Notes: a model not told the origin generated them from the letters alone. 64,000 nt of DNA from Acidobacteriota bacterium (GCA_036338435.1 JAYZCG010000009.1:7733-71732); one strand, 5' to 3'; shown: positions 3,914 to 22,529, numbered from the stretch's first letter. Numbers and translations are program-made.

Positions 3914-4483
3914 CTAGTGCATGTAGAAGAAACAACTGAAAATAGCAGGAGGCGCGTCCGGCAAAACATGTGAAACCTTTAGTACAACATCACCAAACTC
4001 CACCTCTTCAACACGCTCCCCCTCCTTACCAGAGGCCTCTACTCGGTGGGGAAGGACGATATCCTCAGGCGAGATTGAGCCAACATTGAAAGTTATCTCA
4101 GCTATGGGACCATTGGGGAGGGCTTTCCCACCCTGGACTGATAAGTGAAGTATGGAGATATCGCCTTCTGAACTATCCTGGATCTCTGCCTTGACCACCG
4201 CCCCAGCCAGATCTGCTGCAATCCCCGCTCGTGTGCTTAAGTAGGTAAGTTTGGATGTAGGAAATTCTAACCAATGCTCCAGTTGGGACATAGAAACATC
4301 CGGCGCATTCGAAAGTAGGATGGTCACATAAGTCCGTTGTCCAGGCTGTACCGTGGGAGAAGCAAGTACAATGGATGCCCTACCACTTTCCTCTTCTTCC
4401 TGACTCAGCTCTGGCACCTCGTCCTGGGCCCGAACCAGCCCAAAACTAAGTAGCAAGATCGCTACACCAGCAGTCTTGTACAT
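3914..4483 (-). CDS. Secreted cohesin-like beta-sandwich protein with C-terminal CFFYMH tail (copy 1)
   Basis: Sec-type signal peptide (MYKTAGVAILLLSFGLVRA), alternating beta-strand pattern (LEFPTSKLTY, GPIAEITFNV), ends PPAIFSCFFYMH*. The cohesin assignment is by pattern only. Confidence 0.75.
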   Translation of the reverse strand: MYKTAGVAILLLSFGLVRAQDEVPELSQEEEESGRASIVLASPTVQPGQRTYVTILLSNAPDVSMSQLEHWLEFPTSKLTYLSTRAGIAADLAGAVVKAEIQDSSEGDISILHLSVQGGKALPNGPIAEITFNVGSISPEDIVLPHRVEASGKEGERVEEVEFGDVVLKVSHVLPDAPPAIFSCFFYMH

Positions 4484-4610
4484 GACCTACTCCTCACTCT
4501 CAATACTCTCAAAATGCCCAGATCCACTGTCTAAAACTCAAAGTGATTCACGCAGTCGTAAGAGGTTTAAAACCGACCCCTAACTATATCACATTCCCGA
4601 TCAAGGCCCC

Positions 4611-5609
4611 TCAGACCCGAATAAGTCTCTTTATATTCTCCTCATAAATCTTCCCCTTGTCCTCTCCAGAGGCTTCCAGATCCTCCATCGTTTTGATGGT
4701 GTCACCGACAAAGACGTGGCCTCCTTCGGAGTCAAAAGGCATGTCCGAACCAAATAGGACTCGGTCCACACCGAAAAAATCAATTCCACACTCCAGGGCC
4801 GCAACTGAGCCATTGGTAGCTGTATCTGCATAGAACATCTTGAAATAATCATAGGGATGACGTTTGAGTTTACCTAATAGTTCCCGACCGGCATCCGATC
4901 TCTTGCCTACCTTGTTGTATCCCTGGAGAATTCTTCCGTGGGTATAGGGAACTAAACCACCAAGATGATGGGTTATGATCTTCAGAGTGGGATATTTGTC
5001 AAAAAGACCGGCAAAAACTAGTCGAGTCATGGCGGCCGTACTGTCATAAGTCCATCCGAAAATATGCCAGATATCGTATAACGACTCACTCTCAGCTGGA
5101 TAATCAGAGAACTTCCCATTCCGCCCTGGATGTAGCCAGATAGGCAAATCACATTCTGCCATTTTTTTAAAAATGGGCATGAATTCAGGGTCGTCTAAAG
5201 GACGCCCCTTAACATGGGTAAAAAGCTGGATGCCTTTGAGATCCAAATCGTTAATTGCCCTATCTATTTCAATCAGGGCTGCATCGGGATCGTTCATGGG
5301 AATACAGGCCACAGCCCCCACAAAACGATCCGGATATTTGGTAACCAACTCTGCCATTTCATCATTGGCAATGCGAGACATCTCCGCAGCCTCTTCCGGA
5401 TCGGCTATCACTTCCACAGGAGGATTAGCCATGGTCAAAATCTGGACGTAGTCATCGAACATATCCATGACTCTGAACCTCTCTTCAAGATTGATTATAG
5501 CGGGCATTGTCTTAAGCCGTGCCTCTAGACCCATCGAGGGTGGAGCCGCAGCTAAACGTCTTTTGTTAAACTCTGGTGTGAGGATATGGCAGAAAACATC
5601 AATTTTCAC
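4611..5609 (-). CDS. Amidohydrolase_2 family protein (cytoplasmic; nonoxidative decarboxylase/hydrolase class)
   Basis: MKIDVFCHI start, PIWLHP, IITHHLGGLVP and RVLFGSDMPF motifs; no signal peptide. Confidence 0.88.
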   Translation of the reverse strand: MKIDVFCHILTPEFNKRRLAAAPPSMGLEARLKTMPAIINLEERFRVMDMFDDYVQILTMANPPVEVIADPEEAAEMSRIANDEMAELVTKYPDRFVGAVACIPMNDPDAALIEIDRAINDLDLKGIQLFTHVKGRPLDDPEFMPIFKKMAECDLPIWLHPGRNGKFSDYPAESESLYDIWHIFGWTYDSTAAMTRLVFAGLFDKYPTLKIITHHLGGLVPYTHGRILQGYNKVGKRSDAGRELLGKLKRHPYDYFKMFYADTATNGSVAALECGIDFFGVDRVLFGSDMPFDSEGGHVFVGDTIKTMEDLEASGEDKGKIYEENIKRLIRV

Positions 5610-5613
5610 AACT

Positions 5614-5637
5614 CTGTACTCCTTTCTGTACTCCTTT
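5614..5637 (-). repeat. 12-bp tandem duplication containing the Shine-Dalgarno sequence
   Basis: CTGTACTCCTTT x2 on plus, which is AAAGGAGTACAG x2 on minus, directly upstream of GTG 5609. Confidence 0.85.
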
Positions 5638-5803
5638 AGTAGTCCTGGGTAAACATGGCCAGAGTTTAATTAGAGACTGCGTAGGTGTCAATGGAATGCA
5701 ACGACAGATTAAGAATACTATTGGACTAGCTAGTGTGTACACACCCCAATCCAGTCTTGACAAACCCATCTTGCGACTTTAGACTACACGCCCAACCACG
5801 ATA

Positions 5804-6784
5804 ATGAAAACTCAACCGTCGTCCCTTCCCTCCTTCAGCGGAATCATCGGGGCATGTCTGACGCCCTTTCACGAGGATGGTCAGATTAATTATGAGGCGC
5901 TGAAACAAGAAATCGACTTTATTGTCGAAGATGCAGACGCAATCTCCATTGCCGCTGTAGAAGCCGCAGAATACACGATGCTTTCCATCCAAGAACGGAA
6001 AGAGCTCATGAAGATCGCAACCGAGATGGTTGGGAAACGCATTCCGGTTATTCTCGGTGCATCCCATCCCTCTCCAAAGCGAGCTATCGAGCTATCTGAA
6101 TACTGCGCTGATGTGGGTGCCGACATGGTTCAAGTCTTAATGCCGCTCCGTCCTTGGGGAAACCAGCCAACCATGAAGGAATTAATTGATTATTTCACGG
6201 AAATCGCCATGGCTTGTCCCGTTCCCATCATTGCCTATCACAATCCTGGAGCGGGAGCAGATCCCGATATGGAAACAACCATACGCCTAAGTGATATCTT
6301 TAACATCTGTGCCTTCAAGGAAAGCTCTCGCGATATTACTAAAATAACAAGGATGATTGAGGAAATTGAGCTGAGTGGGAACGCCCAGTATTTCACAACC
6401 ATGCAACCACTTTTGATGACCCTGGTTATGGGGGGATCAGGCGCTACCATGCCACCTCCGGGAACCCGCATTGGCGCGAAGGTAGTAAAGGCATTTCGAG
6501 AGGGCGATCAGGAAAAAGCTAAATATTGGCAACGCTTTTACTCCATGTTTCCAGCTAAATGGGGTGCCTATGGACTACCGCCTGTGATGAAATCAGCCTT
6601 AAAACACTTCGACATTGACATGGGAGATCCATCTCCACCTTACAAGCCTGTTGATCCCCGAGACCACGCTCAAATCGGAGAGTTTTTCCGTCAAATTGGC
6701 CTCTTTGATAAAGGAGAACAAACGGAAGTATCCTTCACGGAAGTAGTCTCCAAAATGGGACGGAAAGATACCTTTCTCCGTTAG
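5804..6784 (+). CDS. Dihydrodipicolinate synthase-family (class I aldolase/lyase) protein
   Basis: IIGACLTPFHEDGQINYEAL, IAYHNP (Tyr) and AFKESS (Schiff-base Lys). Confidence 0.85.
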   Translation: MKTQPSSLPSFSGIIGACLTPFHEDGQINYEALKQEIDFIVEDADAISIAAVEAAEYTMLSIQERKELMKIATEMVGKRIPVILGASHPSPKRAIELSEYCADVGADMVQVLMPLRPWGNQPTMKELIDYFTEIAMACPVPIIAYHNPGAGADPDMETTIRLSDIFNICAFKESSRDITKITRMIEEIELSGNAQYFTTMQPLLMTLVMGGSGATMPPPGTRIGAKVVKAFREGDQEKAKYWQRFYSMFPAKWGAYGLPPVMKSALKHFDIDMGDPSPPYKPVDPRDHAQIGEFFRQIGLFDKGEQTEVSFTEVVSKMGRKDTFLR

Positions 6785-6813
6785 ACCAGTGAGGTATTAA
6801 TCCGGATAAATAA

Positions 6814-8199
6814 ATGCTGACAGTATTTTGGAGTATTGGTCTTATTTCGGTGTTCTTTGTCTTCCTGTTTGTGGGCAAAACCAAAGGTCCTTTCGAGCTG
6901 ATTAAACAATGGACGGACACCTGGATTTCTCGATTCTTGAGGTCAACCTCACACTTTGGCCAGGAACTCACTAAAGAAAGCCTTGCAGATCAAAGATGGT
7001 TGCGAAGAATACGTCTGCGGGATTTGCACTATCACGCTCCCACAATTATTACCCACCCTCGCCACAGAATCGTAGTATTAGGAGGGGGAAGCGGTGGCTT
7101 GGTCGCTGCTACTCAGCTAGCTCGAACACTCGGAACAGATCATGAGGTCATCCTGATTGATCGGCGTCCTGACCATGTCTTTATGCCAGCTTTTCTCTTC
7201 CTAATGGTAGGTCAACGACGTCCTCAGGATATCACTCGCAAACTGAAACGCCTTGAACGACACAACGTCAAAGTTGTCCAAGCTGAGATCGAAGGTATTG
7301 ATCCACAACGTCAAGAGATTATGCTGGACACAGATTCGCTTCACTACGACCATCTCATCATTTCTCTTGGGATGCAAACTGCCCCCGAGCTACTTACCGG
7401 ATTCACTGAAGCAGCTGAGCATAGTTGGGAGTTAGATGCCACTGTCAGTCTGCAGAAAACATTGCAATCCTTTGAAAAGGGACGCATTCTTGTTGGAGTC
7501 CCATCTGGTCCCTACCGGTGTCCACCTGCCCCCTACGAGGCTCAGTGGATGCTGGATAGTTATTTCAATGAGCGGGGCATTCGAGAAAAGATCAAAATTG
7601 AATTTTTTACAACCAGTCCTGAGCCAACAGGAGAAGAACGCACCCCTGCCGTGTGGATGGATGCACAAAGCAAAAAGCGGGGAATCAGGCAACACTACTC
7701 ATTCACTGCCCAATCGATTGATGCCGAACAACGAACCGTCAAGGGCCTTTATGGAGTTGAACTGCCCTACGACCTCCTGTTTATGGTTCCGCCTCACAAC
7801 CCAGCTCAAGCACTGGTCGACAGTGGGTTGGCAGAAACAAGAAACGGCATCCGCGTTGACTACGATACCATGGCAACACGCTGGAACAATGTTTACGCAA
7901 TTGGAGACTGTGCCGATATGCCAGTTTCCAAATCGGGCGGAGTAGCACACCAACAAGCCGAGCTGGTAGCCCATAATCTGATGGTTGAGCTAACCGGAGG
8001 AGGAGAACCCAAAACTTTACACTTACATGTTTTGTGACTACTTGCTTATGGCGCGGGCCGCGCCGCTGCTAATCGGACCATCTATCCTGCCAGCTGGCCC
8101 CCCTTTGGTTCGCCTGAGAGCCGTACTTGGGGCCCCTCTAGACTAATCTATGGAGCCAAGGTTGGTTTTGAAAAATGGTGGTTGTGGCGTTATTTTTGA
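6814..8199 (+). CDS. Sulfide:quinone oxidoreductase-like FAD-dependent oxidoreductase; candidate selenoprotein (in-frame TGA at 8035-8037)
   Basis: GGGSGG FAD motif, YRCPPAPYE and YAIGDCA. The ORF track stops at 8037, but the frame continues open for 53 codons (LLAYGAGRAA...GAKVGFEKWWLWRYF*) to TGA 8197-8199, supplying the typical SQR C-terminus. The family call is strong; readthrough is inferred. Confidence 0.75.
8050..8064 (+). promoter_or_regulatory. SECIS-like hairpin downstream of the in-frame UGA
   Basis: GGCGCG-GGC-CGCGCC perfect 6-bp stem starting 12 nt after the UGA, with a G-first apical loop. Confidence 0.5.
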
Positions 8200-8211
8200 G
8201 GAAATTAAGTA

Positions 8212-9720
8212 ATGAAAAGTACAAAAAATCAAACTCAGCACAATACTGTTACAGATCCGTCTAATGAGCAGACTATCCAGCTAGATTTGCGGGATTGGAT
8301 AGAGGAAATCAGAGAGCTAGGGAAATTAAAGGAAATACCAAGAGCCTCATGGGACCTGGAGATAGGCATTTTAACTGATCTCAATGTTAAATCCCATAAA
8401 TGGACACTCCTGTTTGATGAAATTGAAGATTATCCTGCCGGATATCGACTTCTGACGGGTTGTTGTCTCGACGCAAGTCGGGTTGCCCTGACCCTTGGTT
8501 TGTCTCCAAAATTAAATGATCTACAACTGGTCGAGGCATTGCGTCCCAAGCTGGATAAGATTGACTCCAACATCGGTCAGTTTCCTTTCATAGAGGTTTC
8601 GGATGCTCCGTTCCTGCAAAACCGCCAAGTAGGATCAGCAATTGACCTCGAGGCATTACCGGCCATGAGGTGGCATGAAAAGGATGGGGGACGCTATCTG
8701 GGCACCGTTGATGCGGTCGTCACTCGTGATCCAGATTCCGATTGGATTAATGTCGGAACCTATCGGATGATGATCCACGACAAACAACACCTGGGAACAC
8801 ATATCAATGTGTCTCACCACGCACGCCTGCATGCAGAAAAGTATTGGTCCCGTGGAGAAGACTGTCCAATAGCTATTTCTCTAGGTCAGCATCCTCTCAT
8901 TTCGCTTCTGGCTGGAATGGAAATACCTGTAGGAGTTTGTGAATATGATTACGCTGGCAGTCTATTATTGAGTCAATATCCGGTTGTGAAAGGACCCATC
9001 ACCAATCTACCTATCCCAGCAGATAGCGAGATTGTAGTGGAAGGATATCTCACTCAGGAATTAAGGAAAGAAGGGCCCTTCGGGGAATTTATGGGCTACT
9101 ATGCAGGAGGCACCATTGAAAATCCAGTGATCAGAGTAGAAGCGGTTTATTTTCGGGACAACCCCATCATCCTAGGCACAGCCGGTGGGCGACCTCCATA
9201 CGATTACTCGTATTATCGCTGCCCTCTCCGGTCAGCAATGCTTTGGAATGCTTTGGAAAAATCTGGAGTATCTGGAATAAAAGGGGTCTGGTGTCACGAA
9301 GCTGGCTATTCTCGTGCTCTTAACGTTTTGGCGCTGGAACAAGCCTACATGGGACATGCCGAGCAAGTTGGACATCTCGCTTCCCAGCTTCCGGAAGGTG
9401 TTTTCGGAGGCAAGTACGTAGTGGTGGTAGACTCGGACATCGATCCTTCCGACACCGACCAGGTGCTATGGGCGATTTGTTCCAGAACCGACCCAGCTGA
9501 AAATATTGAATTCATTCGTAATTCGTGGGGGATGAATCTAGATCCGATGGTCAAGATAGAACATGACAGCCAGCTTGGAGAGCTCCGAATGTCCCGAGCC
9601 ATCATCAACGCCTGCAAACCCTTCGACCGATTCATACGCGGGGACTTTCCCGAGGTCGTGGATCCTCCTGTCGAAATGAAGGATAAAATCCTGGCTAAAT
9701 GGGAGGACATCCTCGCTTAA
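8212..9720 (+). CDS. UbiD-family (prFMN-dependent) decarboxylase
   Basis: GGRYLGT, NVGTYRMM, EGPFGEFMGYY, VVVDSDIDP and LWAICSRTDP motifs. Confidence 0.92.
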   Translation: MKSTKNQTQHNTVTDPSNEQTIQLDLRDWIEEIRELGKLKEIPRASWDLEIGILTDLNVKSHKWTLLFDEIEDYPAGYRLLTGCCLDASRVALTLGLSPKLNDLQLVEALRPKLDKIDSNIGQFPFIEVSDAPFLQNRQVGSAIDLEALPAMRWHEKDGGRYLGTVDAVVTRDPDSDWINVGTYRMMIHDKQHLGTHINVSHHARLHAEKYWSRGEDCPIAISLGQHPLISLLAGMEIPVGVCEYDYAGSLLLSQYPVVKGPITNLPIPADSEIVVEGYLTQELRKEGPFGEFMGYYAGGTIENPVIRVEAVYFRDNPIILGTAGGRPPYDYSYYRCPLRSAMLWNALEKSGVSGIKGVWCHEAGYSRALNVLALEQAYMGHAEQVGHLASQLPEGVFGGKYVVVVDSDIDPSDTDQVLWAICSRTDPAENIEFIRNSWGMNLDPMVKIEHDSQLGELRMSRAIINACKPFDRFIRGDFPEVVDPPVEMKDKILAKWEDILA

Positions 9721-9798
9721 TAAAATAAGCCAACCTACTAAACGAGTGCCCCGTCAAGAAAGTGGAAAGTTCGTAGATTTGCACGACGGTTCCGCAGG

Positions 9799-10359
9799 CT
9801 AATGCATGTAGAAGAAACATGCAAACATGGGGAGGGCAACTATGACATTGCCGGCCTTAACTTCAACGTTTTGAATGTTCTCTCCATTAGCGTTTTCCAA
9901 AGAAGCCTCCACAATACTGACGAGAAAGTCCTGACTTTCACTCATCTCTTCTGAAGAATCAAAAATAATTTCCAGTAGAGTTCCCTCCACAATGGCTTGA
10001 GGTGAGTCTAATTCAATGGATACGGTCCCGATTGAGCCCTGAACTTCACTCAGTGATTCTACAACGGCGTTCAGGATAAGACCTTCCGTTTCCACCACGG
10101 GGGATCTTATTTCTGCAAAACTCATAACAGTTAATGGAAACTGAACCTTCAGTCTCATGTGTCGAACATCTTGATCTTCCAGCCCATCCACCTCAATCGG
10201 TATGGCCACTGCACGGCCAGCCTCACCAACCGTATCTCGCACCGATATAATAGGATTTTTGGACTCCTGCCCGGACATAGGAACCGAGAATAGTGTAAGG
10301 ATAACGGCTACTAGGCAGGTCTTCAACCACCTATGAGTAAGAATTTTGGAGAAGGCCAT
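9799..10359 (-). CDS. Secreted cohesin-like protein with C-terminal CFFYMH tail (copy 2)
   Basis: Likely start ATG 10359 (MAFSKILTHRWLKTCLVAVILTLFSVPMSG signal peptide); the ORF track extends to 10446. Contains VQFPLTVMSF and GTLLEIIF; ends ALPMFACFFYMH*. Confidence 0.75.
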   Translation of the reverse strand: MAFSKILTHRWLKTCLVAVILTLFSVPMSGQESKNPIISVRDTVGEAGRAVAIPIEVDGLEDQDVRHMRLKVQFPLTVMSFAEIRSPVVETEGLILNAVVESLSEVQGSIGTVSIELDSPQAIVEGTLLEIIFDSSEEMSESQDFLVSIVEASLENANGENIQNVEVKAGNVIVALPMFACFFYMH

Positions 10360-10568
10360 CTTATGTCCATTTGACTGACAGAAGGGGATATACAATCGAT
10401 ACTGTAGAAAAATTCCCACTCCCCAATTATAGCGCCCCTTCACCAAGGCCAGTCTTCCCTACGAATCAGGCTGTAATGTTAAGGAAGGAAGCTTGCTCTC
10501 CTTGACATTACCCCTACAACAAAAACAAACAAATGAGCATCTGTACGCAACACCAGCCAAAGTAGGAT

Positions 10569-12332
10569 CTAACCGTAGTTTGGATACTCCACTTTTTGAT
10601 TGGGATCCTTGTCAGGGTTGATATAAACAAACTTGCCCCCGATCATGGTCATCAAAACTGGAATGTCCCTGATCTTTTCCTTGGGCACCGTCAATATATC
10701 TTGCCCTAATACTACTAGGTCGGCTAACTTTCCAGTCTCTATAGAACCTTTAACATCTTCCTCAAAAGATGCATAAGCAGGGACAATAGTGCAAGCGCGG
10801 ATAGCCTCCTCTAAAGTCATACGCTCCTCTGGCTGAATGACCTTTCCTGATTTTCTAAACCGATTCACAGAAGCCCAAATAGTGTTGAGCGGTCCGATAG
10901 GTTTTTGATCCGTTCCCGTCATGACTTTAATTCCGCTATCCAAGTACGTTCTGGTGGGAATTGGTCCGTATCTTCCCGGCTCTACCTGGTTCTCCAAATC
11001 GTCGCTGGCGCGTAACAAACTACTCGTTTGAGGTTCCACCAACACATCATACTTCTTAAGAACCTCAATGTTTTCCCTGGAGGGATAACGAGCATGAGTT
11101 ATAACATGGCGAGCATCCTCACGTGGAAATTCTCGGTATGCCTCCTCCAGCGACTCGGTCACCACATCGAAGGATTCACCTCCACCAAGGTGAATGAACA
11201 TCTGCCAACCCGATTTGTGAGCAGCCTTGATGATAGCTTTCACCTTGTCCGGAGGAACACGCATTCCAGAACCATCCACGCTAATTTTTAGAGTCCCAAC
11301 CCGCAAGGAATCATTGCGAAATTCTGGAGCAAATAGAAAGCTGTCCAAAAAGGCCAGGTTCTGTTCTAGGGTTTCCACCCTAATGGGCATACGGATCATC
11401 GCATTGATTCGAACCGTCAATTTACCCTGTCGACTGAGACGCTGGTAGGCTTGCAGACCCGGCTGGTTGTCCATGGCCTTACCTATGTTGGTGCAGGGAT
11501 CATATAAACTGGTAAGTCCCTGCTTTACAACCGCTTTCGATCCTCTCAAGATATTTTCTTCCAGTACCTCAGTAGGATACAAATTAAAGGGTCCACGGGC
11601 TAATGTAGTCGCTCCTTTTTCCCTCAAAACCCCAGTTGGCTCACCAGTCTCAGGATCCTTCACAATCTCCCCTGCGAAGCCTCTCTCAGTAGGTTGAGGA
11701 GTATCCTTGGTGATGGTACCTACCATGTCTATTAATTTACTGTTTACAATCGTAGTATGATCCGCCCCAAAACCTAGAATAACAGGGTTATCCGGCGATA
11801 CCGGATCTAAATCATATCGTGTAGGCCATCGCTTTTCAGCGAGTTCGCTGGAACTTCGCACTCCACGAGAAAACCAAACAATCTCTCCGGGGGGTGTTTG
11901 TTCCACCTTCATTTGTAGTGCTTTTCTAACTGCCTCAATGGAACGTGCTTCACTAAACATGTCCTCGTAACGATCACTTGTCTTGCCCACCTTGTGGGCA
12001 AAGTGAACGTGGGGATCATTAAAGCCTGGGAGCACCGTACGACCCTCTAGATCAATCTCCTCTGTATTAGGTCCGATCAGTGCTTTGATGTCAGCATTGG
12101 TCCCAACAGCAATGAACCTGCCATCCTTAATGGCTACTGCTTCAGCAATACTGAATTCTTCATCGACAGTGACAATTTTGCCATTAAACAAAACCTTGTC
12201 AGGTTTCAGTGCATCCAGAGGATCAGCCGTAGCACCTATGACCGTGAAAATGCCAGGATGTAAGGCATTCAATCCTAATACGGCCACCAACAACAAACCG
12301 AACAACGCCGAATTTCTTGCAGACTTTTTCAT
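10569..12332 (-). CDS. Exported YtcJ-like metal-dependent amidohydrolase (Amidohydro_3), paralog A
   Basis: Start ATG 12332 with GGAAGGAG RBS; signal peptide. Motifs PGFNDPHVH, GTLKISVDG, MFIH, VITHA, GTDQKP and GSIETGKLADLVVL. Confidence 0.9.
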   Translation of the reverse strand: MKKSARNSALFGLLLVAVLGLNALHPGIFTVIGATADPLDALKPDKVLFNGKIVTVDEEFSIAEAVAIKDGRFIAVGTNADIKALIGPNTEEIDLEGRTVLPGFNDPHVHFAHKVGKTSDRYEDMFSEARSIEAVRKALQMKVEQTPPGEIVWFSRGVRSSSELAEKRWPTRYDLDPVSPDNPVILGFGADHTTIVNSKLIDMVGTITKDTPQPTERGFAGEIVKDPETGEPTGVLREKGATTLARGPFNLYPTEVLEENILRGSKAVVKQGLTSLYDPCTNIGKAMDNQPGLQAYQRLSRQGKLTVRINAMIRMPIRVETLEQNLAFLDSFLFAPEFRNDSLRVGTLKISVDGSGMRVPPDKVKAIIKAAHKSGWQMFIHLGGGESFDVVTESLEEAYREFPREDARHVITHARYPSRENIEVLKKYDVLVEPQTSSLLRASDDLENQVEPGRYGPIPTRTYLDSGIKVMTGTDQKPIGPLNTIWASVNRFRKSGKVIQPEERMTLEEAIRACTIVPAYASFEEDVKGSIETGKLADLVVLGQDILTVPKEKIRDIPVLMTMIGGKFVYINPDKDPNQKVEYPNYG

Positions 12333-12628
12333 GCTTATCTCCTTCCCTCCGTGACAACGTTCCCACATCTTGTGGCGGTGTGCAAGGTAATAGTCTCATC
12401 GTCCATTACCTTGTCTCCCCATAGTACTCAGCAATCCGGACACCTATGATATCCATTAAAGCAAAAGTACATTCGCACATCGGGCAGGATGGATTATTCC
12501 CCCCGACGGGCACATGCCCTCCAATCCATGTTGTTCATGCATTAGACCAGCAATTTTATTGATATCTAGCCGGTGAAATGCATGTGCGGATCAAAGCTGG
12601 ATTCAACAAAAATGCGGCCACACACGAG

Positions 12629-13120: not shown

Positions 13121-13218
13121 AAATTCAATTCCTTAAATTCTTCACCGTAGTGCATTGGTCGATCACTCGGAGTACCGTGCCGAAAGATCAAGAGATCTAT
13201 AAAAAATCACAACAGCTT

Positions 13219-14872: not shown

Positions 14873-15157
14873 ATTTTGAATTGTCGATATGGACGATAGC
14901 ATGCTAAACACAAAAATTTGGCTGCCACTATGGCAGAATGCGAACGCATCACGCAGAGTCAGTCATCAGGTCCACCAACAAACGATATGGACGAATGAGA
15001 GTAATGAAGGCAAGGTGAAATGGGCGTAGCTATCACAAACCGACCCCCTGCACTGAAGAAAACCCATCAGTCTTTCTCCAGACATGTGCCTGGCTAGCTT
15101 GCTTTAAATTTGGCTTCGTACGACCTGATCCAGAAGTAGTGTGGTGACATTTAGCGT

Positions 15158-15610: not shown

Positions 15611-15710
15611 TAGCGTCTTTCTCCTAACATGTTAGATGTTGTTTTGCATTGAGCCATTTCAATGAATCTATCCCAACGAGTCTATCTTATAGCAAAGCAT
15701 CCCCTTCAGA

Positions 15711-16145
15711 TCAAAAAGTCGCCTTCTTCTCAAAGAAGTGATCTACGGCTCCTTGTGCTACAACTTGATCCTGTCCAGCTGTGCCGGCACTGATTCCTAC
15801 ACCGCCCACAACATCACCATCAATGACGATTGGAAGACCTCCGCCAATGACAGAAAATCGTCCCTGATTCGTAATGTGGATCCCGAAGGTGGGTTCACCC
15901 GGCACACATAATTGATTGTATTCATGGGTTCCCTTGCGGGCTGCGGCACCCGTGAAAGCCTTATCGATCGCAATAGAAATACTTGAAATTTTGGCTCCGT
16001 CCATTCTGGTAAAGGCAAGCAAGTTGCCTGACTCATCAGCCACTGCAATACACATCGGCACTTCAATTTCACGGGACTTTTCTTCCGCACCTTCTACTAA
16101 AATTCTAGCTTCATCTAATGAGAGCCTTTTTATACTAAGCATCAA
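15711..16145 (-). CDS. GlcG/HbpS family heme-binding protein
   Basis: CIAVADESGNLLAFTRMDGA, AIDKAFT, GGGLPI and GGVGISAGTAGQD. Confidence 0.9.
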   Translation of the reverse strand: MMLSIKRLSLDEARILVEGAEEKSREIEVPMCIAVADESGNLLAFTRMDGAKISSISIAIDKAFTGAAARKGTHEYNQLCVPGEPTFGIHITNQGRFSVIGGGLPIVIDGDVVGGVGISAGTAGQDQVVAQGAVDHFFEKKATF

Positions 16146-16307
16146 GCTACTCCTCCCTAATATTATAAACTTTCCACTCGCGACGATTCATACAATCGCA
16201 TTTGAGGCATAGAGTCAAGTATCTATGACCTAATCCAACTATGTGCTTAATCCAGCCTTGCCAACATCAAATATTTGAGTTATAAAGACCGGAGAACTGA
16301 CGTGACC

Positions 16308-17777: not shown

Positions 17778-17907
17778 GTCTGGGTTCAGGAACCGATGCG
17801 CTCTCCTCGGATACCGTGTCACGACAGGCTACAGCCAGCGCGCGAACCAAACATTAGCTAGGCTTCTCTTCTCCAAGTCAAAAACCCGTGGTGGTGGCGT
17901 GCGAAAT

Positions 17908-19662
17908 CTAAAATGCCCCCTCGACCTCATAAACAACCTTGCCATCCACGACGGTCATCAAGATTCGGAGTCGCTCAAGATCACTTTCTGGAAAAGTCAT
18001 ATAGTCTCCTGCAAGCACGACTAGATCAGCCAATTTACCGGGTTCGATTGAGCCCAGAATGTCCTCCTCCCCGCTATAAGCGGCGGCCCAAAGAGTGTAC
18101 ATATAAAGGGCCTCTTCCCTACTGACTTTCTCTTCCGGATCTAGCTGACGACCCTTTTGGTCAATGCGCCTCACCCAGTTTTGGATATTAAATAAGGGGA
18201 AAGCGGTGCGGTGAGTGAATGCATCCGCTTCTGCGGCCGGCCTGATGCCAGCTTCGATCAAAGACTTGACCGGTTGCATCTTGTACACTGCATCCATGCC
18301 ATACATTGTGACCAAAGCATCATTACCGTACATGGCTTTTGAATAAACGCTCGGAATAATATCCATTTCTTTGAGCTGTGCGTAGTGCTCTGGCTGCAAC
18401 ATTAGACCGTGATCAATGCTAAAATGGCGCCCTACTAAAGATTTTTCTTTGTGTGCTTCCTCAAAGACTTCAAGCATGAGGGTGTTGCTCATATCACCAC
18501 TACTATGGAGTGAAGAGACCGTCCAACCATAACGATTAGCCAAAATAATGCTTTGCCGGTCACTAGTAGCCAAATCACCGCTTTCTTCCCACTTGTTCAT
18601 TCCAAAAGGTCCGTAAGGATCCTCCGGCAGGAGCGTAGTCTTGGCCTTAGAAGTGTTAGCAGACCCATTGTTGGAGGTTCCATCGACAACCTGTACTGAC
18701 GTCCCGATTATTTTGAACCAGTCATTGCCAACATCAGTCAGGTTGCCTAATCTTTTTAAATAGGCCTCCGGATATCCATTTTGGCGCAGAAAATGGTGTG
18801 CTACCCGCACCCTCATCGTTAGCTCCCGATGCATCATCAGTTCCCGAAATACTGTAACCTCCAGGCCTCCAGCTCGCCCCATCAAGGTAGTTAATCCCAT
18901 CTCATTGTGACGACGGAAAGATGCCTTCTGCGGCTCCAGCAAAGACTCGACTTCCGGCCAAGGTTCTAGTTCGAATCCAGGAATTCCAGCGGCCGCGCCC
19001 CTGAGGTGTCCCGTCAAATCTCCGTTGTCATCTAGAACAATGCCTGCAACATCCTTGGGAATTCTGTCTAAGACTAGACTATTAGCTACCACCTGGTCAT
19101 TCATCGCCTCAATATAGAGAGGATTATTTGGAGCAACTTCATCCAAAAGATTCACGTTTAATTCATGGTTAACTACCGGATTGCTAGGCCCAGACAACGC
19201 TAAGAACTCTCCTGGCTGAGCTTCCTTGACTAACGTTCGTAGACCCTCTAAAGCACTCTCCAGAGTATCCCAATCAATGTCGTCATCGCTAAATGGAACC
19301 GCCATACTTCGATCTCGGGCCGGGCGCGTAACCCACGCTGAGTGCAAATGAGTGTCTATAAACCCCGGCACGACACTGCGCCCCTCTAGGTCTATCCTTT
19401 GGGTCTCTGGACCCGCCATGGCCAAAACCCTTTGGGTGGTTCCCACAGCCAGAAACTTGCCGTCTCGGATCGCCACCGCTTGGGCAATGGTAAATTGCTC
19501 GTCAGCAGTTATAACCTTGCCGTTATAAAAGACTGCGTCGGCATAAGCGACCACCTCCGCAGGCAGGGTACCGGCGCTTTGCCCCAATCCTGTCTGGGTC
19601 ATAGACAACAAAACTACTGCCATCCCACAGCAACGAAAATAACTCTTACAAATTCGAATCAT
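17908..19662 (-). CDS. Exported YtcJ-like amidohydrolase, paralog B
   Basis: Signal peptide; PGFIDTHLH, SSLHSSGD, SIDHG, AAEAD and GSIEPGKLADLVVL. Confidence 0.9.
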   Translation of the reverse strand: MIRICKSYFRCCGMAVVLLSMTQTGLGQSAGTLPAEVVAYADAVFYNGKVITADEQFTIAQAVAIRDGKFLAVGTTQRVLAMAGPETQRIDLEGRSVVPGFIDTHLHSAWVTRPARDRSMAVPFSDDDIDWDTLESALEGLRTLVKEAQPGEFLALSGPSNPVVNHELNVNLLDEVAPNNPLYIEAMNDQVVANSLVLDRIPKDVAGIVLDDNGDLTGHLRGAAAGIPGFELEPWPEVESLLEPQKASFRRHNEMGLTTLMGRAGGLEVTVFRELMMHRELTMRVRVAHHFLRQNGYPEAYLKRLGNLTDVGNDWFKIIGTSVQVVDGTSNNGSANTSKAKTTLLPEDPYGPFGMNKWEESGDLATSDRQSIILANRYGWTVSSLHSSGDMSNTLMLEVFEEAHKEKSLVGRHFSIDHGLMLQPEHYAQLKEMDIIPSVYSKAMYGNDALVTMYGMDAVYKMQPVKSLIEAGIRPAAEADAFTHRTAFPLFNIQNWVRRIDQKGRQLDPEEKVSREEALYMYTLWAAAYSGEEDILGSIEPGKLADLVVLAGDYMTFPESDLERLRILMTVVDGKVVYEVEGAF

Positions 19663-19691
19663 ACTATCTCCTTATTCGCACAAAGTCGGCA

Positions 19692-21701
19692 CTAGTCCAT
19701 AAGGGCTGCTTCCCTTTTTCCCTCTACTGTGAAGGCTTCACCAATTTCAGCAATTTCACTGTCTTCAAAGCTGTAGTGGGGACCTACCGGTGCGGTTTCC
19801 CATTCACTTGCCAAAGTCTCATTTAACACGATGACCTTTCCCCCCACCATAGTCATGAGCGGTCGAATCTTGAGAAGATCATCAACGGGAACAGTAAAAT
19901 AGTCTCGATCCATAACCATAAAATCTGCCCATTTCCCCGTCTCAAGGGTGCCAAGCTCATCCTCCTTCATGATGTAGCGAGAGGCCCAAGCGGTCCACAT
20001 CTTCAAAGCATGTACCCGATCAATCCGTTCCTCGGGTTGCCACACTCTCCCATCATATTTCCGGGTAATAGCTTGCCACAACATAAAGAAAGGTGGCTGG
20101 CGCTGCCCACGTCTCACAGTACCTTCGCCTCCTCCTCCTTTGAAAGCACCGCCGCCGTAGTGCTGTCCCACCAGATTTACTCCAGATTCGATCCAAGTCC
20201 TAAATGGAATGAAAAAGTCCTCAATGTTATCAGTGTAGGGACCATAATCCTTGATCCATGAACGCATCACACTCACGTAGTCGGGACCGCAACTAAGGAT
20301 GAGCCCATACCTCTTAATCTTGTCAATTACATCGGGCTGTTTCCCAATCAAATCACAATGCTCTAAGGCAAAGTGCTGATCATGAATGTCCTGCACCGAC
20401 ATACCTGTTAGTTCTCTAGCCTCATCGACCATCTCAATGAATCTTCTCAGACTTTCGCTGCCACAGGTATGTACTCCCTTAATCCTCCAGCCTGCCCTAA
20501 TTGCATTAACCAAAGTGTCCCAATGCAAATCCCCCTTTTGGGGACATGTCTCACGGGCCTTCAGGTGAGCCGGGGCATTGGTATCTGGTCCCAGACAGGA
20601 CTCTGGGAAGTGTGAATCCCATCGCTCTGAGGCCACACCATCAAACCAGAAATAGTCATTGCCAATCCCCTGCAAAACGCCGGTACGCCGATACAATTGT
20701 CGGGTCTCCTGGGGATCGGTCGGCATCCGGTGCACTTCGTAATGTGCGTTGAACCGGATTGGCATTTGTCCCATCTCGGCTAGTCTGGCATATCCGGTCA
20801 TCACTTTGGGAAACTGTACTCGACTTGAAAACGTTGTAACTCCTAAGGAGGCCCACGCCTCAGACTCCAGTTTTAGCATCTGAGCCAACGTATTGGGCTC
20901 CAGACCCTCCAGAAAGAGTTCCCAGGTGATCACCGACATTTCTTGACTCCCGACCCATCCGATATCCGGGATGTCTTCGCCAATCACATCGCCATGCATT
21001 GTCTCTTGGATAGAGGCAGAATAACCGGGCAGGAAATCATTGATAACCTCCAAACCTTTGGAGTTAATAAACCCTCGATTCCCAGGTCGCACCAGGATGG
21101 GATTATCAGGAGCCCACTGATCCAATGCACGGCGATTAGTCAAAACCCGTGTAGCTCCCCAAACACCTATCTGTTTAGGATCAGACGGATGACCATCAAC
21201 CGCAACCATGAGCCATTTACCGGGTTCCATGTTTGCCACGGCTTCTTGAATTCCATCTCGGAGAGCACCTTGAGTTCTCTCCAGATCCAACTCTGCCTCA
21301 ACTGTCACCTCCTCAGCCGGATACTCGTACCCAAAACGGTCTAACCAACGCAACGACCTTCCATAAATATGCTGGTGGGTCTCAATAATGCCCGGAATCA
21401 AGGTGCGTCCATTCAGGTCCAACACCTGGGTTCTGCGGCCAGCCAAAGAACGAATTTCCTCGTTAGTACCTAGCTTCATGATGGAATCACCTTTAACAGC
21501 TACAGCCTCATAGACATTGCCCACTTCAGCCGAAGCTGACTTGTCATCCATACTAACAACCTTACCCCCAACAAAGATCGTGTCGGCATAGCCCATGATC
21601 TCTACCTCGGGTGGCAGTTGCTGTGAGTACAAGAAAAATCCAGGCAAAAAAACGATGAGCACTGTGGCCCAAAACTTACATTTAGCAGTGTTGATTTTCA
21701 T
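19692..21701 (-). CDS. Exported YtcJ-like amidohydrolase, paralog C (divergent active site)
   Basis: Signal peptide; PGIIETHQH, KGVHTCG, ALEHCD and GTLETGKWADF; GQHYG where paralogs have GTD/EAD. Confidence 0.85.
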   Translation of the reverse strand: MKINTAKCKFWATVLIVFLPGFFLYSQQLPPEVEIMGYADTIFVGGKVVSMDDKSASAEVGNVYEAVAVKGDSIMKLGTNEEIRSLAGRRTQVLDLNGRTLIPGIIETHQHIYGRSLRWLDRFGYEYPAEEVTVEAELDLERTQGALRDGIQEAVANMEPGKWLMVAVDGHPSDPKQIGVWGATRVLTNRRALDQWAPDNPILVRPGNRGFINSKGLEVINDFLPGYSASIQETMHGDVIGEDIPDIGWVGSQEMSVITWELFLEGLEPNTLAQMLKLESEAWASLGVTTFSSRVQFPKVMTGYARLAEMGQMPIRFNAHYEVHRMPTDPQETRQLYRRTGVLQGIGNDYFWFDGVASERWDSHFPESCLGPDTNAPAHLKARETCPQKGDLHWDTLVNAIRAGWRIKGVHTCGSESLRRFIEMVDEARELTGMSVQDIHDQHFALEHCDLIGKQPDVIDKIKRYGLILSCGPDYVSVMRSWIKDYGPYTDNIEDFFIPFRTWIESGVNLVGQHYGGGAFKGGGGEGTVRRGQRQPPFFMLWQAITRKYDGRVWQPEERIDRVHALKMWTAWASRYIMKEDELGTLETGKWADFMVMDRDYFTVPVDDLLKIRPLMTMVGGKVIVLNETLASEWETAPVGPHYSFEDSEIAEIGEAFTVEGKREAALMD

Positions 21702-22001
21702 GGTAATGGACGTACTGGAATCTCAGGCTATCTTCTACCCGCTTCCAGCCGCACGCTCCTTTCACTTTGGTGGTCAAGATTTACAACATTTCAGGCCAGC
21801 TAGTAACGAAAATCGTGCCCAGGTCATTCTCGTTCTTCGACAAGAACTTAGCTTCACCTAGCCTAAGTCTAGAATTGGGAAAACAAACTGTCAAGACAGT
21901 CTAGGACGATTCTACACCACCCGCACCCGCCTCAGCGGCCCGTCTATCATCCTAGGCAAGTCAGTCCAGCCAGATTCCTGGGCAAATGGAGGGCTAATCC
22001 T

Positions 22002-22529
22002 TTAGTGCATATAGAAAAAGCACGCAGGTATGAATTCGATGGATGTGATCGATCCACTCAAACCTCGGGCTGCTAAATCATTTCCGTCCAATGATTTAGC
22101 ACTCTGGATAAGATTCTCTAATTGGATATCATGGTTAGCAGCAATCTCCTGGGAAATCTCAAAACTCAGCGTGACCAGCAACCCCTGGTCAATGGAACTA
22201 GTCGAAGAAATCTCCACTCTTAGAATTTTTTGTTCACCATCGCCATCATCTCGTACCTGGGTATTCAACTTAGCGCCTTGCACATCAACGGCACCACCAA
22301 GAACGGCATCAGTGAAAGAAAGTGACGTGGCGGGAAACGCCATCTCGAACACTACCAAACCCACCTGGGGATCGTTTCGGGTAACTACAGTGACAGGAAT
22401 CTCTGCCGTGTCGCCCTGGGTAAAGGTATCGACAAGAACCCCGAAATCAATATTGACACCAGGTACACCCTGGGGACTGACGACTACAATCACAAGCGCA
22501 AATAGGAAAGCTAGGGGAATACTCTTCAT
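22002..22529 (-). CDS. Secreted cohesin-like protein with C-terminal CFFYMH tail (copy 3)
   Basis: Signal peptide MKSIPLAFLFALVIVVVS; AEIPVTV, MAFPATSLSF and GLLVTLSFEI; ends IEFIPACFFYMH*. Confidence 0.75.
   Translation of the reverse strand: MKSIPLAFLFALVIVVVSPQGVPGVNIDFGVLVDTFTQGDTAEIPVTVVTRNDPQVGLVVFEMAFPATSLSFTDAVLGGAVDVQGAKLNTQVRDDGDGEQKILRVEISSTSSIDQGLLVTLSFEISQEIAANHDIQLENLIQSAKSLDGNDLAARGLSGSITSIEFIPACFFYMH

What the first reader, a model, noticed from the sequence alone, without database searches (positions are those of the whole stretch)
3914..22529. Three divergent secreted cohesin-like proteins share an invariant C-terminal CFFYMH-stop tail
Seen: ORFs 3914-4483, 9799-10359 and 22002-22529 (all minus, about 175-190 aa, Sec signal peptides, beta-sandwich pattern) are visibly poorly similar over their bodies. 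All end in exactly CFFYMH* (PPAIFSCFFYMH, LPMFACFFYMH, EFIPACFFYMH). The tail codons differ only at synonymous positions (TGT TTC TTC TAC ATG CAC TAG / TGT TTC TTC TAC ATG CAT TAG / TGC TTT TTC TAT ATG CAC TAA; tails at 3914-3934, 9799-9819, 22002-22022). Selection therefore appears to act on the peptide and on a free terminal His, not on a DNA repeat. I do not recognise this motif from any characterised family. Inference: the tail is the functional unit, displayed on a carrier domain. Candidate roles are (i) a soft-metal (Cu/Zn/Ni) ligand set of Cys+Met+His+carboxylate, (ii) a RiPP-like core that is post-translationally modified, (iii) a C-terminal sorting or anchoring signal, or (iv) a tail that docks into a partner enzyme's metal site.
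Basis: partly seen in the sequence, partly recalled or inferred. Interest (0 to 1): 0.92.

Follow-up and report, generated by a model that had tools for sequence, protein, structure and literature searches.

The report
Exported cohesin proteins with invariant CFFYMH tail
Three secreted cohesin-fold proteins in this window belong to a large, unnamed Acidobacteriota family in which every member ends in the same six residues (Cys-Phe-Phe-Tyr-Met-His), usually sits next to a secreted metal-dependent amidohydrolase gene, and has a tail whose job is still unknown.

Summary
Three minus-strand ORFs (3914-4483, 9799-10359, 22002-22529) are 24-26% identical paralogues with N-terminal export signals, and all end in CFFYMH-stop with synonymous codon differences.

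- **Body:** it is a true cohesin fold by AlphaFold2/Foldseek and by profile matches to scaffoldin cohesins. The tail is a disordered C-terminal arm.
- **Family:** an unbiased HMM search found 1913 representatives. Of the top 121 short ones, 120 end in C-[FLY]-[FY]-[YF]-[MLVTS]-H at the exact C-terminus. Cys and His are invariant; Tyr and Met are not.
- **Carriers:** DNA scans found the tail only on cohesin carriers, apart from one TPR-cohesin-tail fusion. GTDB hits lie almost only in Acidobacteriota MAGs, with several tail genes each (up to five found).
- **Annotation:** no Pfam, NCBIfam or paper describes the motif.
- **Neighbours:** 47 of 95 non-redundant genes directly adjoin an exported YtcJ-like Amidohydro_3 gene. 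TonB-dependent receptors and transporters are also nearby. The ORF1 clade always adjoins an S41 C-terminal processing protease. No RiPP maturases were seen.

My best guess, at low confidence, is a thiol/imidazole/carboxylate ligand arm that docks at partner metallohydrolases, in the manner of SoxY or a cysteine switch. An envelope anchor is a close rival. I class this as a new variant of a known kind, and it is testable.

The parts
3914..4483 (-). ORF1, 189 aa: export signal, cohesin-fold domain (about aa 35-170, nt 3974-4381), Pro-rich linker HVLPDAPPAIFS, then tail CFFYMH (nt 3917-3934) and stop TAG (3914-3916)
   Evidence: Pfam Cohesin E 4.7e-4, 20.8 bits, below the cut-off of 24.1; AF2 pLDDT 81; strands at 36-170; tail below 50; Foldseek top hits are all cohesins
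9799..10359 (-). ORF2, 186 aa (ATG start; a TTG at 10446 would give 215 aa): export signal, cohesin-like body, tail CFFYMH (nt 9802-9819), stop TAG
   Evidence: (P0003 is the same 186-aa protein)
22002..22529 (-). ORF3, 175 aa: export signal, cohesin-like body, very short linker (SIEFIPA), tail CFFYMH (nt 22005-22022), stop TAA
   Evidence: (Pfam Cohesin E 4.4e-4); orthologues in L001, L029, L033 keep the same neighbours
10569..12368 (-). Exported YtcJ-like Amidohydro_3 (599 aa), directly upstream of ORF2 on the same strand; the same pairing is kept in L079 and L101
   Evidence: signal peptide; closest PDB entry 3icj, an uncharacterised metal-dependent hydrolase; HxH motif kept
19692..21701 (-). 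Exported Amidohydro_3 (669 aa), directly downstream of ORF3 on the same strand
17908..19662 (-). Second exported Amidohydro_3 (584 aa) in the same gene string downstream of ORF3
915..2609 (-). S41 C-terminal processing peptidase (PDZ + Peptidase_S41). It is the conserved downstream neighbour of ORF1-type genes in other genomes; here an Nramp gene lies between them
   Evidence: TIGR00225 prc, 284 bits against a cut-off of 218.6; 11 non-redundant loci
2681..3883 (+). Nramp divalent-metal transporter lying between ORF1 and the S41 gene; also adjacent to tail genes in L011 and L115
4611..5609 (-). Amidohydro_2 protein (332 aa, no signal peptide) upstream of ORF1; this neighbour is kept in L008, L009 and L152

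Best explanation
Shown: the three genes belong to an unnamed family found almost only in Acidobacteriota MAGs. Its members are exported single-cohesin proteins. A well-folded but fast-diverging cohesin beta-sandwich carries a flexible C-terminal arm, (P-P)-[IVL]-x-[ASG]-C-F-F-Y-M-H-COOH. In that arm only the lone Cys, the last His and the free C-terminus are invariant. The genes sit inside envelope nutrient-scavenging gene strings: a TonB-dependent receptor, exported YtcJ-type metallo-amidohydrolases or an M20 peptidase, and an inner-membrane symporter.

Inferred (my preferred mechanism): the arm is a ligand arm. Its thiolate, imidazole and carboxylate, held in a hydrophobic Phe-Phe-Tyr/Phe collar, dock into a conserved metal-containing pocket of the partner hydrolases. 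The arm would either cap the metal centre, deliver a metal to it, or present a covalently bound group to it. The variable cohesin body would supply paralogue-specific surface contacts. This works like the SoxY swinging arm with the dimetal hydrolase SoxB, or like a cysteine-switch propeptide. It is not homologous to either.
For: - **Family and invariance:** (120 of 121 short representatives end C..H at the terminus; free synonymous variation and all three stop codons).
- **Arm on a fold:** (tail pLDDT below 50, body above 90; cohesin fold and sequence matches).
- **Lone thiol:** (no other Cys in the mature part in 165 of 173 members).
- **Gene context:** (an AH3 gene directly adjacent in 47 of 95 non-redundant genes, often co-directional with gaps of -74 to +170 nt). 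One search shows AH3 frequency of 39% and 30% at positions -1 and +1, against mostly 4-18% further out (up to 29-33% at -5/-6). One search shows 13 distinct tail clades that all pair with AH3 genes.
- **Partners are exported metalloenzymes:** the AH3 proteins have signal peptides and keep the HxH metal motif. Other neighbours are also exported metalloproteins or envelope parts: an M20 peptidase, a cupin, a TonB-dependent receptor, an SSF symporter and Nramp.
- **Reducing enzyme nearby:** a periplasmic DsbD_N/AhpC-TSA thiol-disulfide oxidoreductase lies next to tail genes in 4 loci.
- **Precedent:** SoxY carries intermediates on a Cys in a swinging arm that reaches the two metal ions of SoxB (PMC5336275).
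Against:
- About half of the tail genes have no adjacent AH3 gene. The ORF1 clade (next to S41 protease, CoxG or a cytoplasmic Amidohydro_2) and the TPR-cohesin-tail fusions in MoxR/VWA operons keep the same tail without an AH3 neighbour. That points to a partner that does not depend on gene context.
- These genomes are rich in AH3 genes, so part of the adjacency is regional.
- There is no deep co-diversification of tail bodies with adjacent AH3 proteins (r = 0.08 for distant pairs).
- Four bulky aromatic or hydrophobic residues between the two ligands are unusual for known metal-binding tails, and differ from SoxY's Gly-rich arm.
- Met and Tyr are not invariant.
Confidence: 0.3

Rival explanations
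1. Envelope anchor or tether. The cohesin body docks a partner protein such as the neighbouring amidohydrolase. The invariant tail fixes the complex to a membrane or envelope component, either by modification of the Cys (the context [IVL]-x-[ASG]-C resembles a lipobox placed at the C-terminus) or by interfacial insertion of the aromatic tail. This would work like single-cohesin anchoring scaffoldins such as ScaE (LPXTG) or OlpA (SLH).
For: - The architecture (signal peptide, one cohesin, a linker that is Pro-rich in the ORF1 type but very short in ORF3, then a conserved C-terminal motif) mirrors anchoring scaffoldins (PMC5301203). The best PDB sequence matches are anchoring-protein cohesins.
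- An invariant tail on divergent bodies in many paralogues is the logic of a signal read by one shared machinery.
- Position -1 is A/S/G in 104 of 112 and position -9 relative to the C-terminus (lipobox -3) is I/V/L in 92 of 112.
- Wimley-White interfacial energy of the tail is about -4.7 kcal/mol.
- The module is appended after a disordered linker to a TPR protein in MoxR/VWA operons, which reads like a localisation module.
- It explains tail conservation in loci without an AH3 gene.
Against: - There is no transmembrane helix or basic cluster as in every known sorting signal, and only 5 residues follow the Cys.
- The tail is never found directly on amidohydrolases or on any non-cohesin passenger among 121 DNA matches and 113 locus ORFs. 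That is odd for a generic anchor that would be easy to acquire.
- No dockerin-like partner was found in any locus (a small clostridial model only).
- The invariant terminal His has no obvious role.
- No candidate sortase-like gene recurs nearby.
Confidence: 0.25
2. Autonomous metal or haem binding site, acting as a periplasmic metallochaperone or buffer. Cys thiolate, His imidazole, the terminal carboxylate and usually Met or Tyr bind Cu, Zn, Ni or haem on their own, without entering a partner's active site.
For: - Cys, Tyr, Met and His can act as ligand residues and the two Phe are aromatic.
- The Cys is the only one in the mature protein.
- Nramp, exported metalloenzymes and a thiol-disulfide oxidoreductase occur nearby.
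Against: - Met and Tyr are replaceable.
- The strictly hydrophobic spacer is unlike the composition-only conservation of known chaperone tails.
- No conserved body His or Cys completes a site.
- No metal-resistance or haem-uptake genes recur nearby.
Confidence: 0.12
3. C-terminal recognition tag for a peptide-binding domain, either the PDZ domain of the S41 C-terminal processing protease or TPR adaptors. The tail would recruit, activate or be clipped by Ctp. The small residue before Cys fits a Ser/Lys-protease P1 site.
For: - ORF1-type genes are followed by an S41 Ctp gene in at least 10 non-redundant loci spanning 45-98% identity.
- The S41 protein is a bona fide prc-type peptidase with PDZ domains.
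- Exported TPR proteins are fused to, or directly downstream of, some tail proteins.
- The exact free C-terminus is required.
Against: - Only one clade shows S41 adjacency, and that may be inherited synteny with a housekeeping S41-SLT/LysM block. In the window and in L011 an Nramp gene separates the two.
- AF2 does not dock the tail into the fused TPR.
- From my own knowledge, a C-terminal His is atypical for PDZ ligands.
- A tag that is removed would not be expected to keep an invariant Cys.
Confidence: 0.1
4. RiPP-like or pheromone-like product. The hexapeptide is modified (for example a Tyr-x-His or Cys cross-link) and/or released as a small molecule.
For: The core is invariant while the rest of the protein is divergent. 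From my own knowledge, the C-terminal Y-x-H resembles the biarylitide core.
Against: - No radical-SAM, YcaO, MNIO, P450 or similar maturase recurs near tail genes.
- The precursor is a 15-kDa folded, Sec-exported domain.
- Tyr is replaced by Phe in some members.
- Conservation runs opposite to usual RiPPs, which have a conserved leader and a variable core.
Confidence: 0.05

Closest known systems
Single-cohesin anchoring scaffoldins of cellulosomes (R. flavefaciens ScaE; C. thermocellum OlpA/OlpC; A. cellulolyticus ScaC cohesins)
   Same: The cohesin fold is homologous (Foldseek E about 1e-8, TM 0.7-0.79 on the target; profile to PDB 4uyp 4.7e-9 and 3ul4; profile hits an 8-cohesin scaffoldin at 2.7e-53). 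The layout also matches: signal peptide, one cohesin, linker, conserved C-terminal element.
   Different: The hosts are Gram-negative Acidobacteriota. No dockerin-bearing partners were found. The neighbours are amidohydrolases, not glycoside hydrolases. The C-terminal element is a 6-residue Cys...His-COOH peptide rather than LPXTG plus a TM helix, or SLH repeats.
SoxY sulfur-carrier protein (SoxYZ) with its C-terminal Cys swinging arm
   Same: A small exported carrier protein (beta-sandwich fold from my own knowledge) with an invariant peptide arm near its C-terminus (from my own knowledge). The arm bears the single functional Cys and enters partner enzymes, including the dimetal hydrolase SoxB (PMC5336275). 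Here the partners are encoded alongside.
   Different: No sequence relationship (no SoxY Pfam hit at E<=1) and no SoxZ or Sox genes. The arm is aromatic (CFFYMH), whereas SoxY's is Gly-rich (GGCGG, from my own knowledge). No evidence exists for a covalent cargo.
Non-cellulosomal cohesins (Archaeoglobus fulgidus 2xdh, Clostridium perfringens 2jh2)
   Same: Stand-alone cohesin-fold modules outside cellulosomes (ranks 7, 23).
   Different: Those lack the CFFYMH tail and the amidohydrolase context.
C-terminal sorting signals (LPXTG/sortase, PEP-CTERM/exosortase, GlyGly-CTERM/rhombosortase) and the N-terminal lipobox
   Same: A short invariant motif on many divergent paralogues. The context [IVL]-x-[ASG]-C is lipobox-like.
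   Different: No TM helix or basic tail. The motif sits at the extreme C-terminus and occurs only on one domain family. No dedicated processing-enzyme gene recurs nearby.
Cysteine-switch propeptides of metalloproteases; tail-specific (Ctp/Prc) protease substrates
   Same: A lone conserved Cys that could ligate a catalytic metal. A free hydrophobic C-terminus of the kind read by PDZ domains. An S41 gene lies next to one clade.
   Different: The tail is on a separate protein, not a propeptide, and nothing here was tested biochemically. The terminal His is atypical for PDZ ligands (from my own knowledge).

Membership tests
Cohesin domain (Pfam PF00963) superfamily | Pfam Cohesin HMM score above the gathering threshold | tested here: inconclusive
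   Window ORF1 scores 20.8 bits and ORF3 20.9 bits against a cut-off of 24.1. ORF2 has no hit. Many homologues carry precomputed PF00963 hits.
Cohesin domain (Pfam PF00963) superfamily | Beta-sandwich fold that superposes on solved cohesin modules | tested here: met
   AF2 model pLDDT is 81, with the body above 90. The listed top 50 Foldseek PDB hits are cohesin or cohesin-like modules, E down to 9e-9, TM on target 0.7-0.79.
Cohesin domain (Pfam PF00963) superfamily | Sequence-profile homology to bona fide scaffoldin cohesins | tested here: met
   The family profile hits multi-cohesin proteins (P0055 at E 2.7e-53). P0055 has 8 Pfam Cohesin domains plus CBM3 and a dockerin. PDB cohesins match at 4.7e-9 to 1.8e-5.
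Cohesin-dockerin system | Dockerin-bearing partner proteins encoded in the genome or neighbourhood | tested here: not met
   A dockerin HMM built from 7 clostridial dockerins found no hit (E<=1) in 2,882 ORFs of the window and the loci fetched up to then. Pfam found no dockerin on any scanned neighbour. This is a limited test: only neighbourhoods were scanned and the model is narrow.
Anchoring scaffoldins (ScaE/OlpA type) | A recognised C-terminal anchoring module (LPXTG sortase signal with TM helix, or SLH repeats) | tested here: not met
   The proteins end 5 residues after the Cys. There is no LPXTG, TM segment or SLH.
PEP-CTERM / GlyGly-CTERM / other exosortase- or rhombosortase-type sorting domains | Tripartite signal: motif, then a TM helix, then a basic cluster at the C-terminus; NCBIfam models exist | tested here: not met
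   No NCBIfam hit at E<=1. The tail is too short for a TM helix.
Bacterial lipoproteins (Lgt/LspA substrates) | Lipobox [LVI][ASTVI][GAS]C at the end of an N-terminal signal peptide | tested here: not met
   A lipobox-like [IVL]-x-[ASG]-C is present, but at the C-terminus, and position -2 is mostly Phe. The N-terminal signals have no lipobox Cys. Whether the Cys is lipidated cannot be tested here.
SoxY sulfur carrier | SoxY domain homology, a GGCGG C-terminus, and SoxZ/SoxB/SoxAX genes alongside | tested here: not met
   No SoxY Pfam hit. The tail is CFFYMH. No Sox genes occur among the neighbours. The resemblance is functional only.
RiPP precursor | A short cytoplasmic precursor with an adjacent maturase (rSAM, YcaO, MNIO, P450, lanthionine synthetase and so on) | tested here: not met
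   The proteins are 175-190 aa, exported and folded. No maturase family was found among window neighbours or among recurrent neighbours in about 100 loci.
Cupredoxin / type-1 copper site | Cupredoxin fold with His ... Cys-x(n)-His-x(n)-Met ligands | tested here: not met
   The fold is cohesin, not cupredoxin. No body His is conserved, and Met is replaceable.
Substrate or ligand of S41 C-terminal processing protease | Binding or cleavage of the C-terminal tail by the Ctp PDZ/protease | not testable with these tools
   Only gene adjacency is available, and only for the ORF1 clade.

The most novel reading that the evidence does not exclude
The CFFYMH-COOH arm could be a previously unknown kind of C-terminal functional device in the envelope of Gram-negative bacteria. 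One form would be a 'reverse lipobox', meaning a new Cys-based C-terminal lipidation or attachment signal that needs no transmembrane helix. The other would be a SoxY-like covalent carrier or cysteine-switch arm that services a whole fleet of exported amidohydrolases. Either would define a new system specific to Acidobacteriota.
Probability: 0.25. Interest if true: 0.85.

Novelty: new variant of a known kind. Interest (0 to 1): 0.62.

Why it matters
- **Ecological relevance:** Acidobacteriota are abundant in soils, sediments and oceans, yet they are poorly cultured and few of their proteins have been characterised. This family is large (1913 representatives at 50% clustering, 648 of them at E<=1e-10), multi-copy per genome, and wired into operons for exported amidohydrolases, TonB-dependent receptors and transporters. 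Those operons probably process organic nitrogen or amide compounds.
- **A sharp, testable signature:** a six-residue C-terminus held under absolute constraint (Cys, His and the terminus itself) on a body that diverges to about 20% identity is one of the cleaner unexplained short motifs in bacterial exported proteins. It can be probed directly by mass spectrometry, metal analysis, fractionation and pull-downs.
- **Payoff either way:** if the tail is an anchor, it is a new sorting chemistry. If it is a ligand arm, it is a new accessory-subunit principle for amidohydrolase-superfamily enzymes.
- **Immediate use:** the family deserves its own HMM and name, for example 'cohesin-like, CFFYMH-CTERM'.

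Tried and rejected
- **Tail-only protein searches failed.** I used a degenerate DNA scan of metagenome contigs instead.
- **AF2 of the natural TPR-cohesin-tail fusion.** This tested whether the tail docks in the TPR groove. The tail stays at pLDDT about 40, so there is no support, though the result is inconclusive.
- **Dockerin search in all loci:** nothing found.
- **Disulfide partner.** I checked for an odd Cys count in adjacent amidohydrolases and found no pattern.
- **Mirror-tree test of tail bodies against adjacent amidohydrolases.** Overall r = 0.62, but this comes from orthologues; r = 0.08 among distant pairs. There is no evidence that the pairs duplicated together.
- **OMP beta-signal mimicry.** A neighbouring TonB-dependent receptor ends in ...LKLLW, unlike the tail, so I rejected this.
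- **Promoter and terminator scan of 3500-23000:** counts equal to shuffles.
- **DNA or RNA repeat explanation.** Free synonymous variation and unrelated 3' flanks rule it out.
- **Literature:** 'CFFYMH' in 0 papers; 'FFYMH' in 1 unrelated paper.
- **Cupredoxin, CaaX box (Cys + 3 residues) and biarylitide readings.** I considered these and set them aside because of fold, spacing, context, or Tyr-to-Phe variants.
Full report
**1. Observation**

The three minus-strand ORFs at 3914-4483, 9799-10359 and 22002-22529 translate to proteins of 189, 186 and 175 aa. They end in ...PPAIFSCFFYMH*...LPMFACFFYMH* and ...EFIPACFFYMH*.

The degenerate pattern TGY TTY TTY TAY ATG CAY TRR occurs three times in the window, against 0.00 in 100 shuffles. 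No further copy exists in any of the six frames. The bodies are true but distant paralogues at 24-26% identity, with pairwise E of 1e-11 to 3e-11. All three start with a strongly hydrophobic N-terminal segment typical of Sec signals.

**2. What the body is**

Pfam gives only sub-threshold Cohesin hits for ORF1 and ORF3 (20.8 and 20.9 bits against a cut-off of 24.1) and nothing for ORF2. NCBIfam gives nothing.

An AlphaFold2 model of ORF1, built with a 26-sequence family alignment, has a confident beta-sandwich at residues 35-170. The N-terminal signal region and the last roughly 19 residues are low-confidence or disordered.

- Foldseek against the PDB returns cohesin or cohesin-like modules for all 50 listed top hits (E down to 9e-9, TM 0.7-0.79 normalised to the target).
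- The family profile matches PDB cohesins by sequence, for example ScaC 4uyp at 4.7e-9 and OlpA 3ul4.
- In a 1.84-billion-protein library the profile also hits multi-cohesin scaffoldins. One of these, P0055, has 8 Pfam Cohesin domains, a CBM3 and a dockerin.

The body is therefore a genuine, divergent cohesin.

**3. The tail defines a large family**

- *Word-indexed search.* It found 54 relatives, and 53 of them end in C[FL]FY[ML]H.
- *Unbiased HMM search.* It found 1913 representatives at E<=1e-3 and 648 at E<=1e-10. Among the 150 best, 121 are short proteins of about 140-275 aa. Of these, 120 end at the exact C-terminus in C-[FLY]-[FY]-[YF]-[MLVTS]-H, and 103 are CFFYMH. The other 25 new hits are long multi-cohesin scaffoldin-like proteins without the tail.
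- *Which positions are fixed.* Cys and His are invariant. Tyr can be Phe, and Met can be Leu, Val, Thr, Ser or Ile.
- *Upstream context.* It is (Pro-Pro)-[IVL]-[F/I/P/T]-[A/S/G]-Cys.
- *Selection.* In 41 distinct genes the synonymous sites vary freely and all three stop codons are used. Selection is on the peptide and on termination right after His.
- *Lone Cys.* The tail Cys is the only Cys of the mature protein in 165 of 173 members.
- *Annotation.* No paper contains the motif, and source annotations say only 'hypothetical protein'.

**4. Carrier specificity and taxonomy**

- About 70 matches are 160-290 aa ORFs that hit a body-only HMM, with the tail removed, at E of 1e-11 to 1e-63.
- The rest are chance matches (ORFs of 2-30 aa, or TGG in place of a stop) or truncated and frameshifted family members.
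- The only other architecture is a signal peptide-TPR-cohesin-tail fusion (L139; family P0201-P0204 ending CFFY[MI]H).

All 113 ORFs in the fetched loci that hit the body HMM carry the tail. The tail and this cohesin subfamily are inseparable, so the tail is not a generic signal attached to diverse passengers.

A GTDB scan returned 29 loci. Nearly all are titled Acidobacteriota or Acidobacteria MAGs; three contigs come from one MAG titled 'uncultured bacterium', and one short contig was binned as Binatia. Most MAGs yielded 2-5 tail genes, and one yielded a single full-length gene. That scan used only the patterns [IM][FP][AS]CFFYM, so the taxonomic limit is provisional.

**5. Genomic context**

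In the window, ORF2 lies directly downstream of an exported Amidohydro_3 gene (10569-12368). ORF3 lies directly upstream of two more (19692-21701 and 17908-19662). ORF1 lies between a cytoplasmic Amidohydro_2 gene and, across an Nramp gene, an S41 C-terminal processing protease.

Across 99 non-redundant tail genes, 95 have at least one visible neighbour. In 47 of those 95, an Amidohydro_3 (AH3) gene is directly adjacent. The commonest arrangement is upstream on the same strand, with gaps of -74 to +170 nt.

| Position relative to tail gene | AH3 frequency |
|---|---|
| -1 | 39% |
| +1 | 30% |
| ±2 to ±8 | mostly 4-18% (up to 29-33% at -5/-6) |

Thirteen different tail clades have AH3 neighbours from different AH3 clades.

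The AH3 proteins carry signal peptides and keep the HxH metal motif. They match no named NCBIfam equivalog, and their closest PDB relative is an uncharacterised metal-dependent hydrolase, 3icj.

Other recurrent neighbours are:

- SusC-like TonB-dependent receptors with a CarboxypepD_reg domain, giving strings such as receptor-AH3-tail or receptor-tail-AH3;
- SSF or Na-sulfate-type symporters;
- a DUF5916/CBM9 protein, probably of the outer membrane;
- an exported M20 peptidase and an exported cupin;
- exported TPR proteins;
- in four loci, a DsbD_N plus AhpC/TSA thiol-disulfide oxidoreductase.

ORF1-type orthologues (45-98% identity) are followed by the S41 protease in at least 10 non-redundant loci. 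No RiPP maturase, sortase-like or Sox gene recurs. The TPR-cohesin-tail fusions sit at the end of MoxR/DUF58/VWA operons. The window itself has a MoxR gene at 62779-63819 beside TPR and DUF4159 genes.

**6. Mechanism**

*Shown.* This is an exported cohesin module with a flexible C-terminal arm. The invariant chemistry of the arm is one thiol, one imidazole and the alpha-carboxylate, separated by four hydrophobic or aromatic residues. The module is embedded in envelope scavenging operons built around metallo-amidohydrolases.

*Inferred.* A tail that is identical on bodies with no conserved surface residues implies one common partner site for the tail and paralogue-specific roles for the bodies.

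*Preferred reading (confidence about 0.3).* The arm is a ligand arm that docks at the conserved metal pocket of partner hydrolases. It could cap the site, deliver a metal or present a bound group.
- The functional precedent is SoxY. Its swinging-arm Cys carries intermediates to the dimetal hydrolase SoxB (PMC5336275).
- A second precedent, from my own knowledge, is the cysteine-switch propeptide of metalloproteases.

*Main rival (about 0.25).* The tail is an envelope anchor, by analogy with homologous single-cohesin anchoring scaffoldins such as ScaE, which has an LPXTG signal (PMC5301203).
- For it: the lipobox-like context of the Cys, and the tail's conservation in loci without AH3 genes (the ORF1 clade and the TPR fusions).
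- Against it: there is no TM segment, the tail never occurs on other passengers, and no dockerins were found.

*Lesser rivals.* These are an autonomous metal or haem site (0.12), a PDZ/TPR-read tag for the S41 protease (0.10) and a RiPP-like product (0.05). AF2 of the TPR fusion did not dock the tail, and no multimer prediction was available. The choice between these readings remains open.

**7. Comparison and novelty**

By fold and sequence the family belongs to the cohesin superfamily. It fails the defining features of:

- cohesin-dockerin systems, because no dockerin was found;
- anchoring scaffoldins, because there is no LPXTG or SLH;
- known C-terminal sorting domains, because there is no TM helix or basic cluster;
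- lipoproteins, because the lipobox-like motif is at the wrong end;
- SoxY, RiPP precursors and cupredoxins.

I rate it a new variant of a known kind: a non-cellulosomal cohesin subfamily defined by an undescribed, absolutely conserved C-terminal hexapeptide and a new gene context.

Interest is moderately high at 0.62. The signature is clean, widespread in an important phylum and directly testable, but its function is unresolved. The most novel reading still open is a new C-terminal attachment chemistry or a new carrier-arm system. I give that about 0.25 probability, and it would merit about 0.85 interest if true.

Noticed in passing
window 10569-31863: An island with five exported YtcJ-like Amidohydro_3 paralogues (10569-12368, 17908-19662, 19692-21701, 28268-30007, 30139-31863). 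It also holds two UbiD-family decarboxylases (8212-9720, 26417-28126), an exported Abhydrolase_10-like protein (24548-26350), a class II aldolase and a 2-hydroxyacid dehydrogenase. It looks like a catabolic island for amide or aromatic compounds. The gene order is conserved in L001, L029 and L033.
   Followed up: partly
window 31936-34851: Large subunit (MoCoBD_1/2) and [2Fe-2S] subunit of a xanthine-dehydrogenase/aldehyde-oxidase-family molybdenum hydroxylase. Homologues also lie next to tail genes in L021 and L058.
   Followed up: no
window 56082-63819; L139, L157: A gene string with a GATase1-like/MG2 protein, a TPR + Peptidase_MA_2 protein, DUF4159 and a MoxR AAA+ ATPase. In other genomes a MoxR/DUF58/VWA operon ends in a TPR-cohesin-CFFY[MI]H fusion protein (P0201-P0204).
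   Followed up: partly
L024 2769-3638, L034 971-1834, L134 3881-4750: A 289-aa protein with AhpC/TSA (thioredoxin-like) and DsbD_N domains lies convergent with tail genes, 12-16 nt away, in four non-redundant loci. This could be a periplasmic reductant for the lone tail Cys.
   Followed up: partly
L021 9186-10495, L024 1638-2752, L030 5525-6459, L044 5361-6332: Tail genes also occur as tandem pairs, some overlapping by about 20 nt. The two copies have different linker types, for example ...AIPACFFYMH followed by ...AVFGCFFYMH.
   Followed up: no
window 22030-22584 (+): A 184-aa ORF lies antisense to ORF3. It is almost certainly a shadow ORF, because the minus-strand gene is the one conserved across the family.
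   Followed up: partly
P0014, P0170; L120, L154, L102, L149; L018 12902-13120: Several family members in public assemblies are frameshifted or truncated. Examples are P0014, which lacks the tail, and a 72-aa remnant ending CFSYMH in L018. These are probably assembly errors or pseudogenes.
   Followed up: no
L004, L008, L010-L013 downstream of the S41 gene: The S41 protease gene is itself followed by a conserved block: a 579-aa SLT + LysM lytic transglycosylase and an FAA_hydrolase. The ORF1-S41 adjacency may therefore partly reflect a conserved cell-wall housekeeping block.
   Followed up: partly
P0051 context: A gene string of TonB-dependent receptor, Amidohydro_3 and tail gene (4-nt overlap), followed by a Lactamase_B-Rhodanese fusion (persulfide-dioxygenase-like) and a convergent TauE sulfite-exporter family gene. 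This is a sulfur-themed context and could be relevant to a thiol carrier reading.
   Followed up: no
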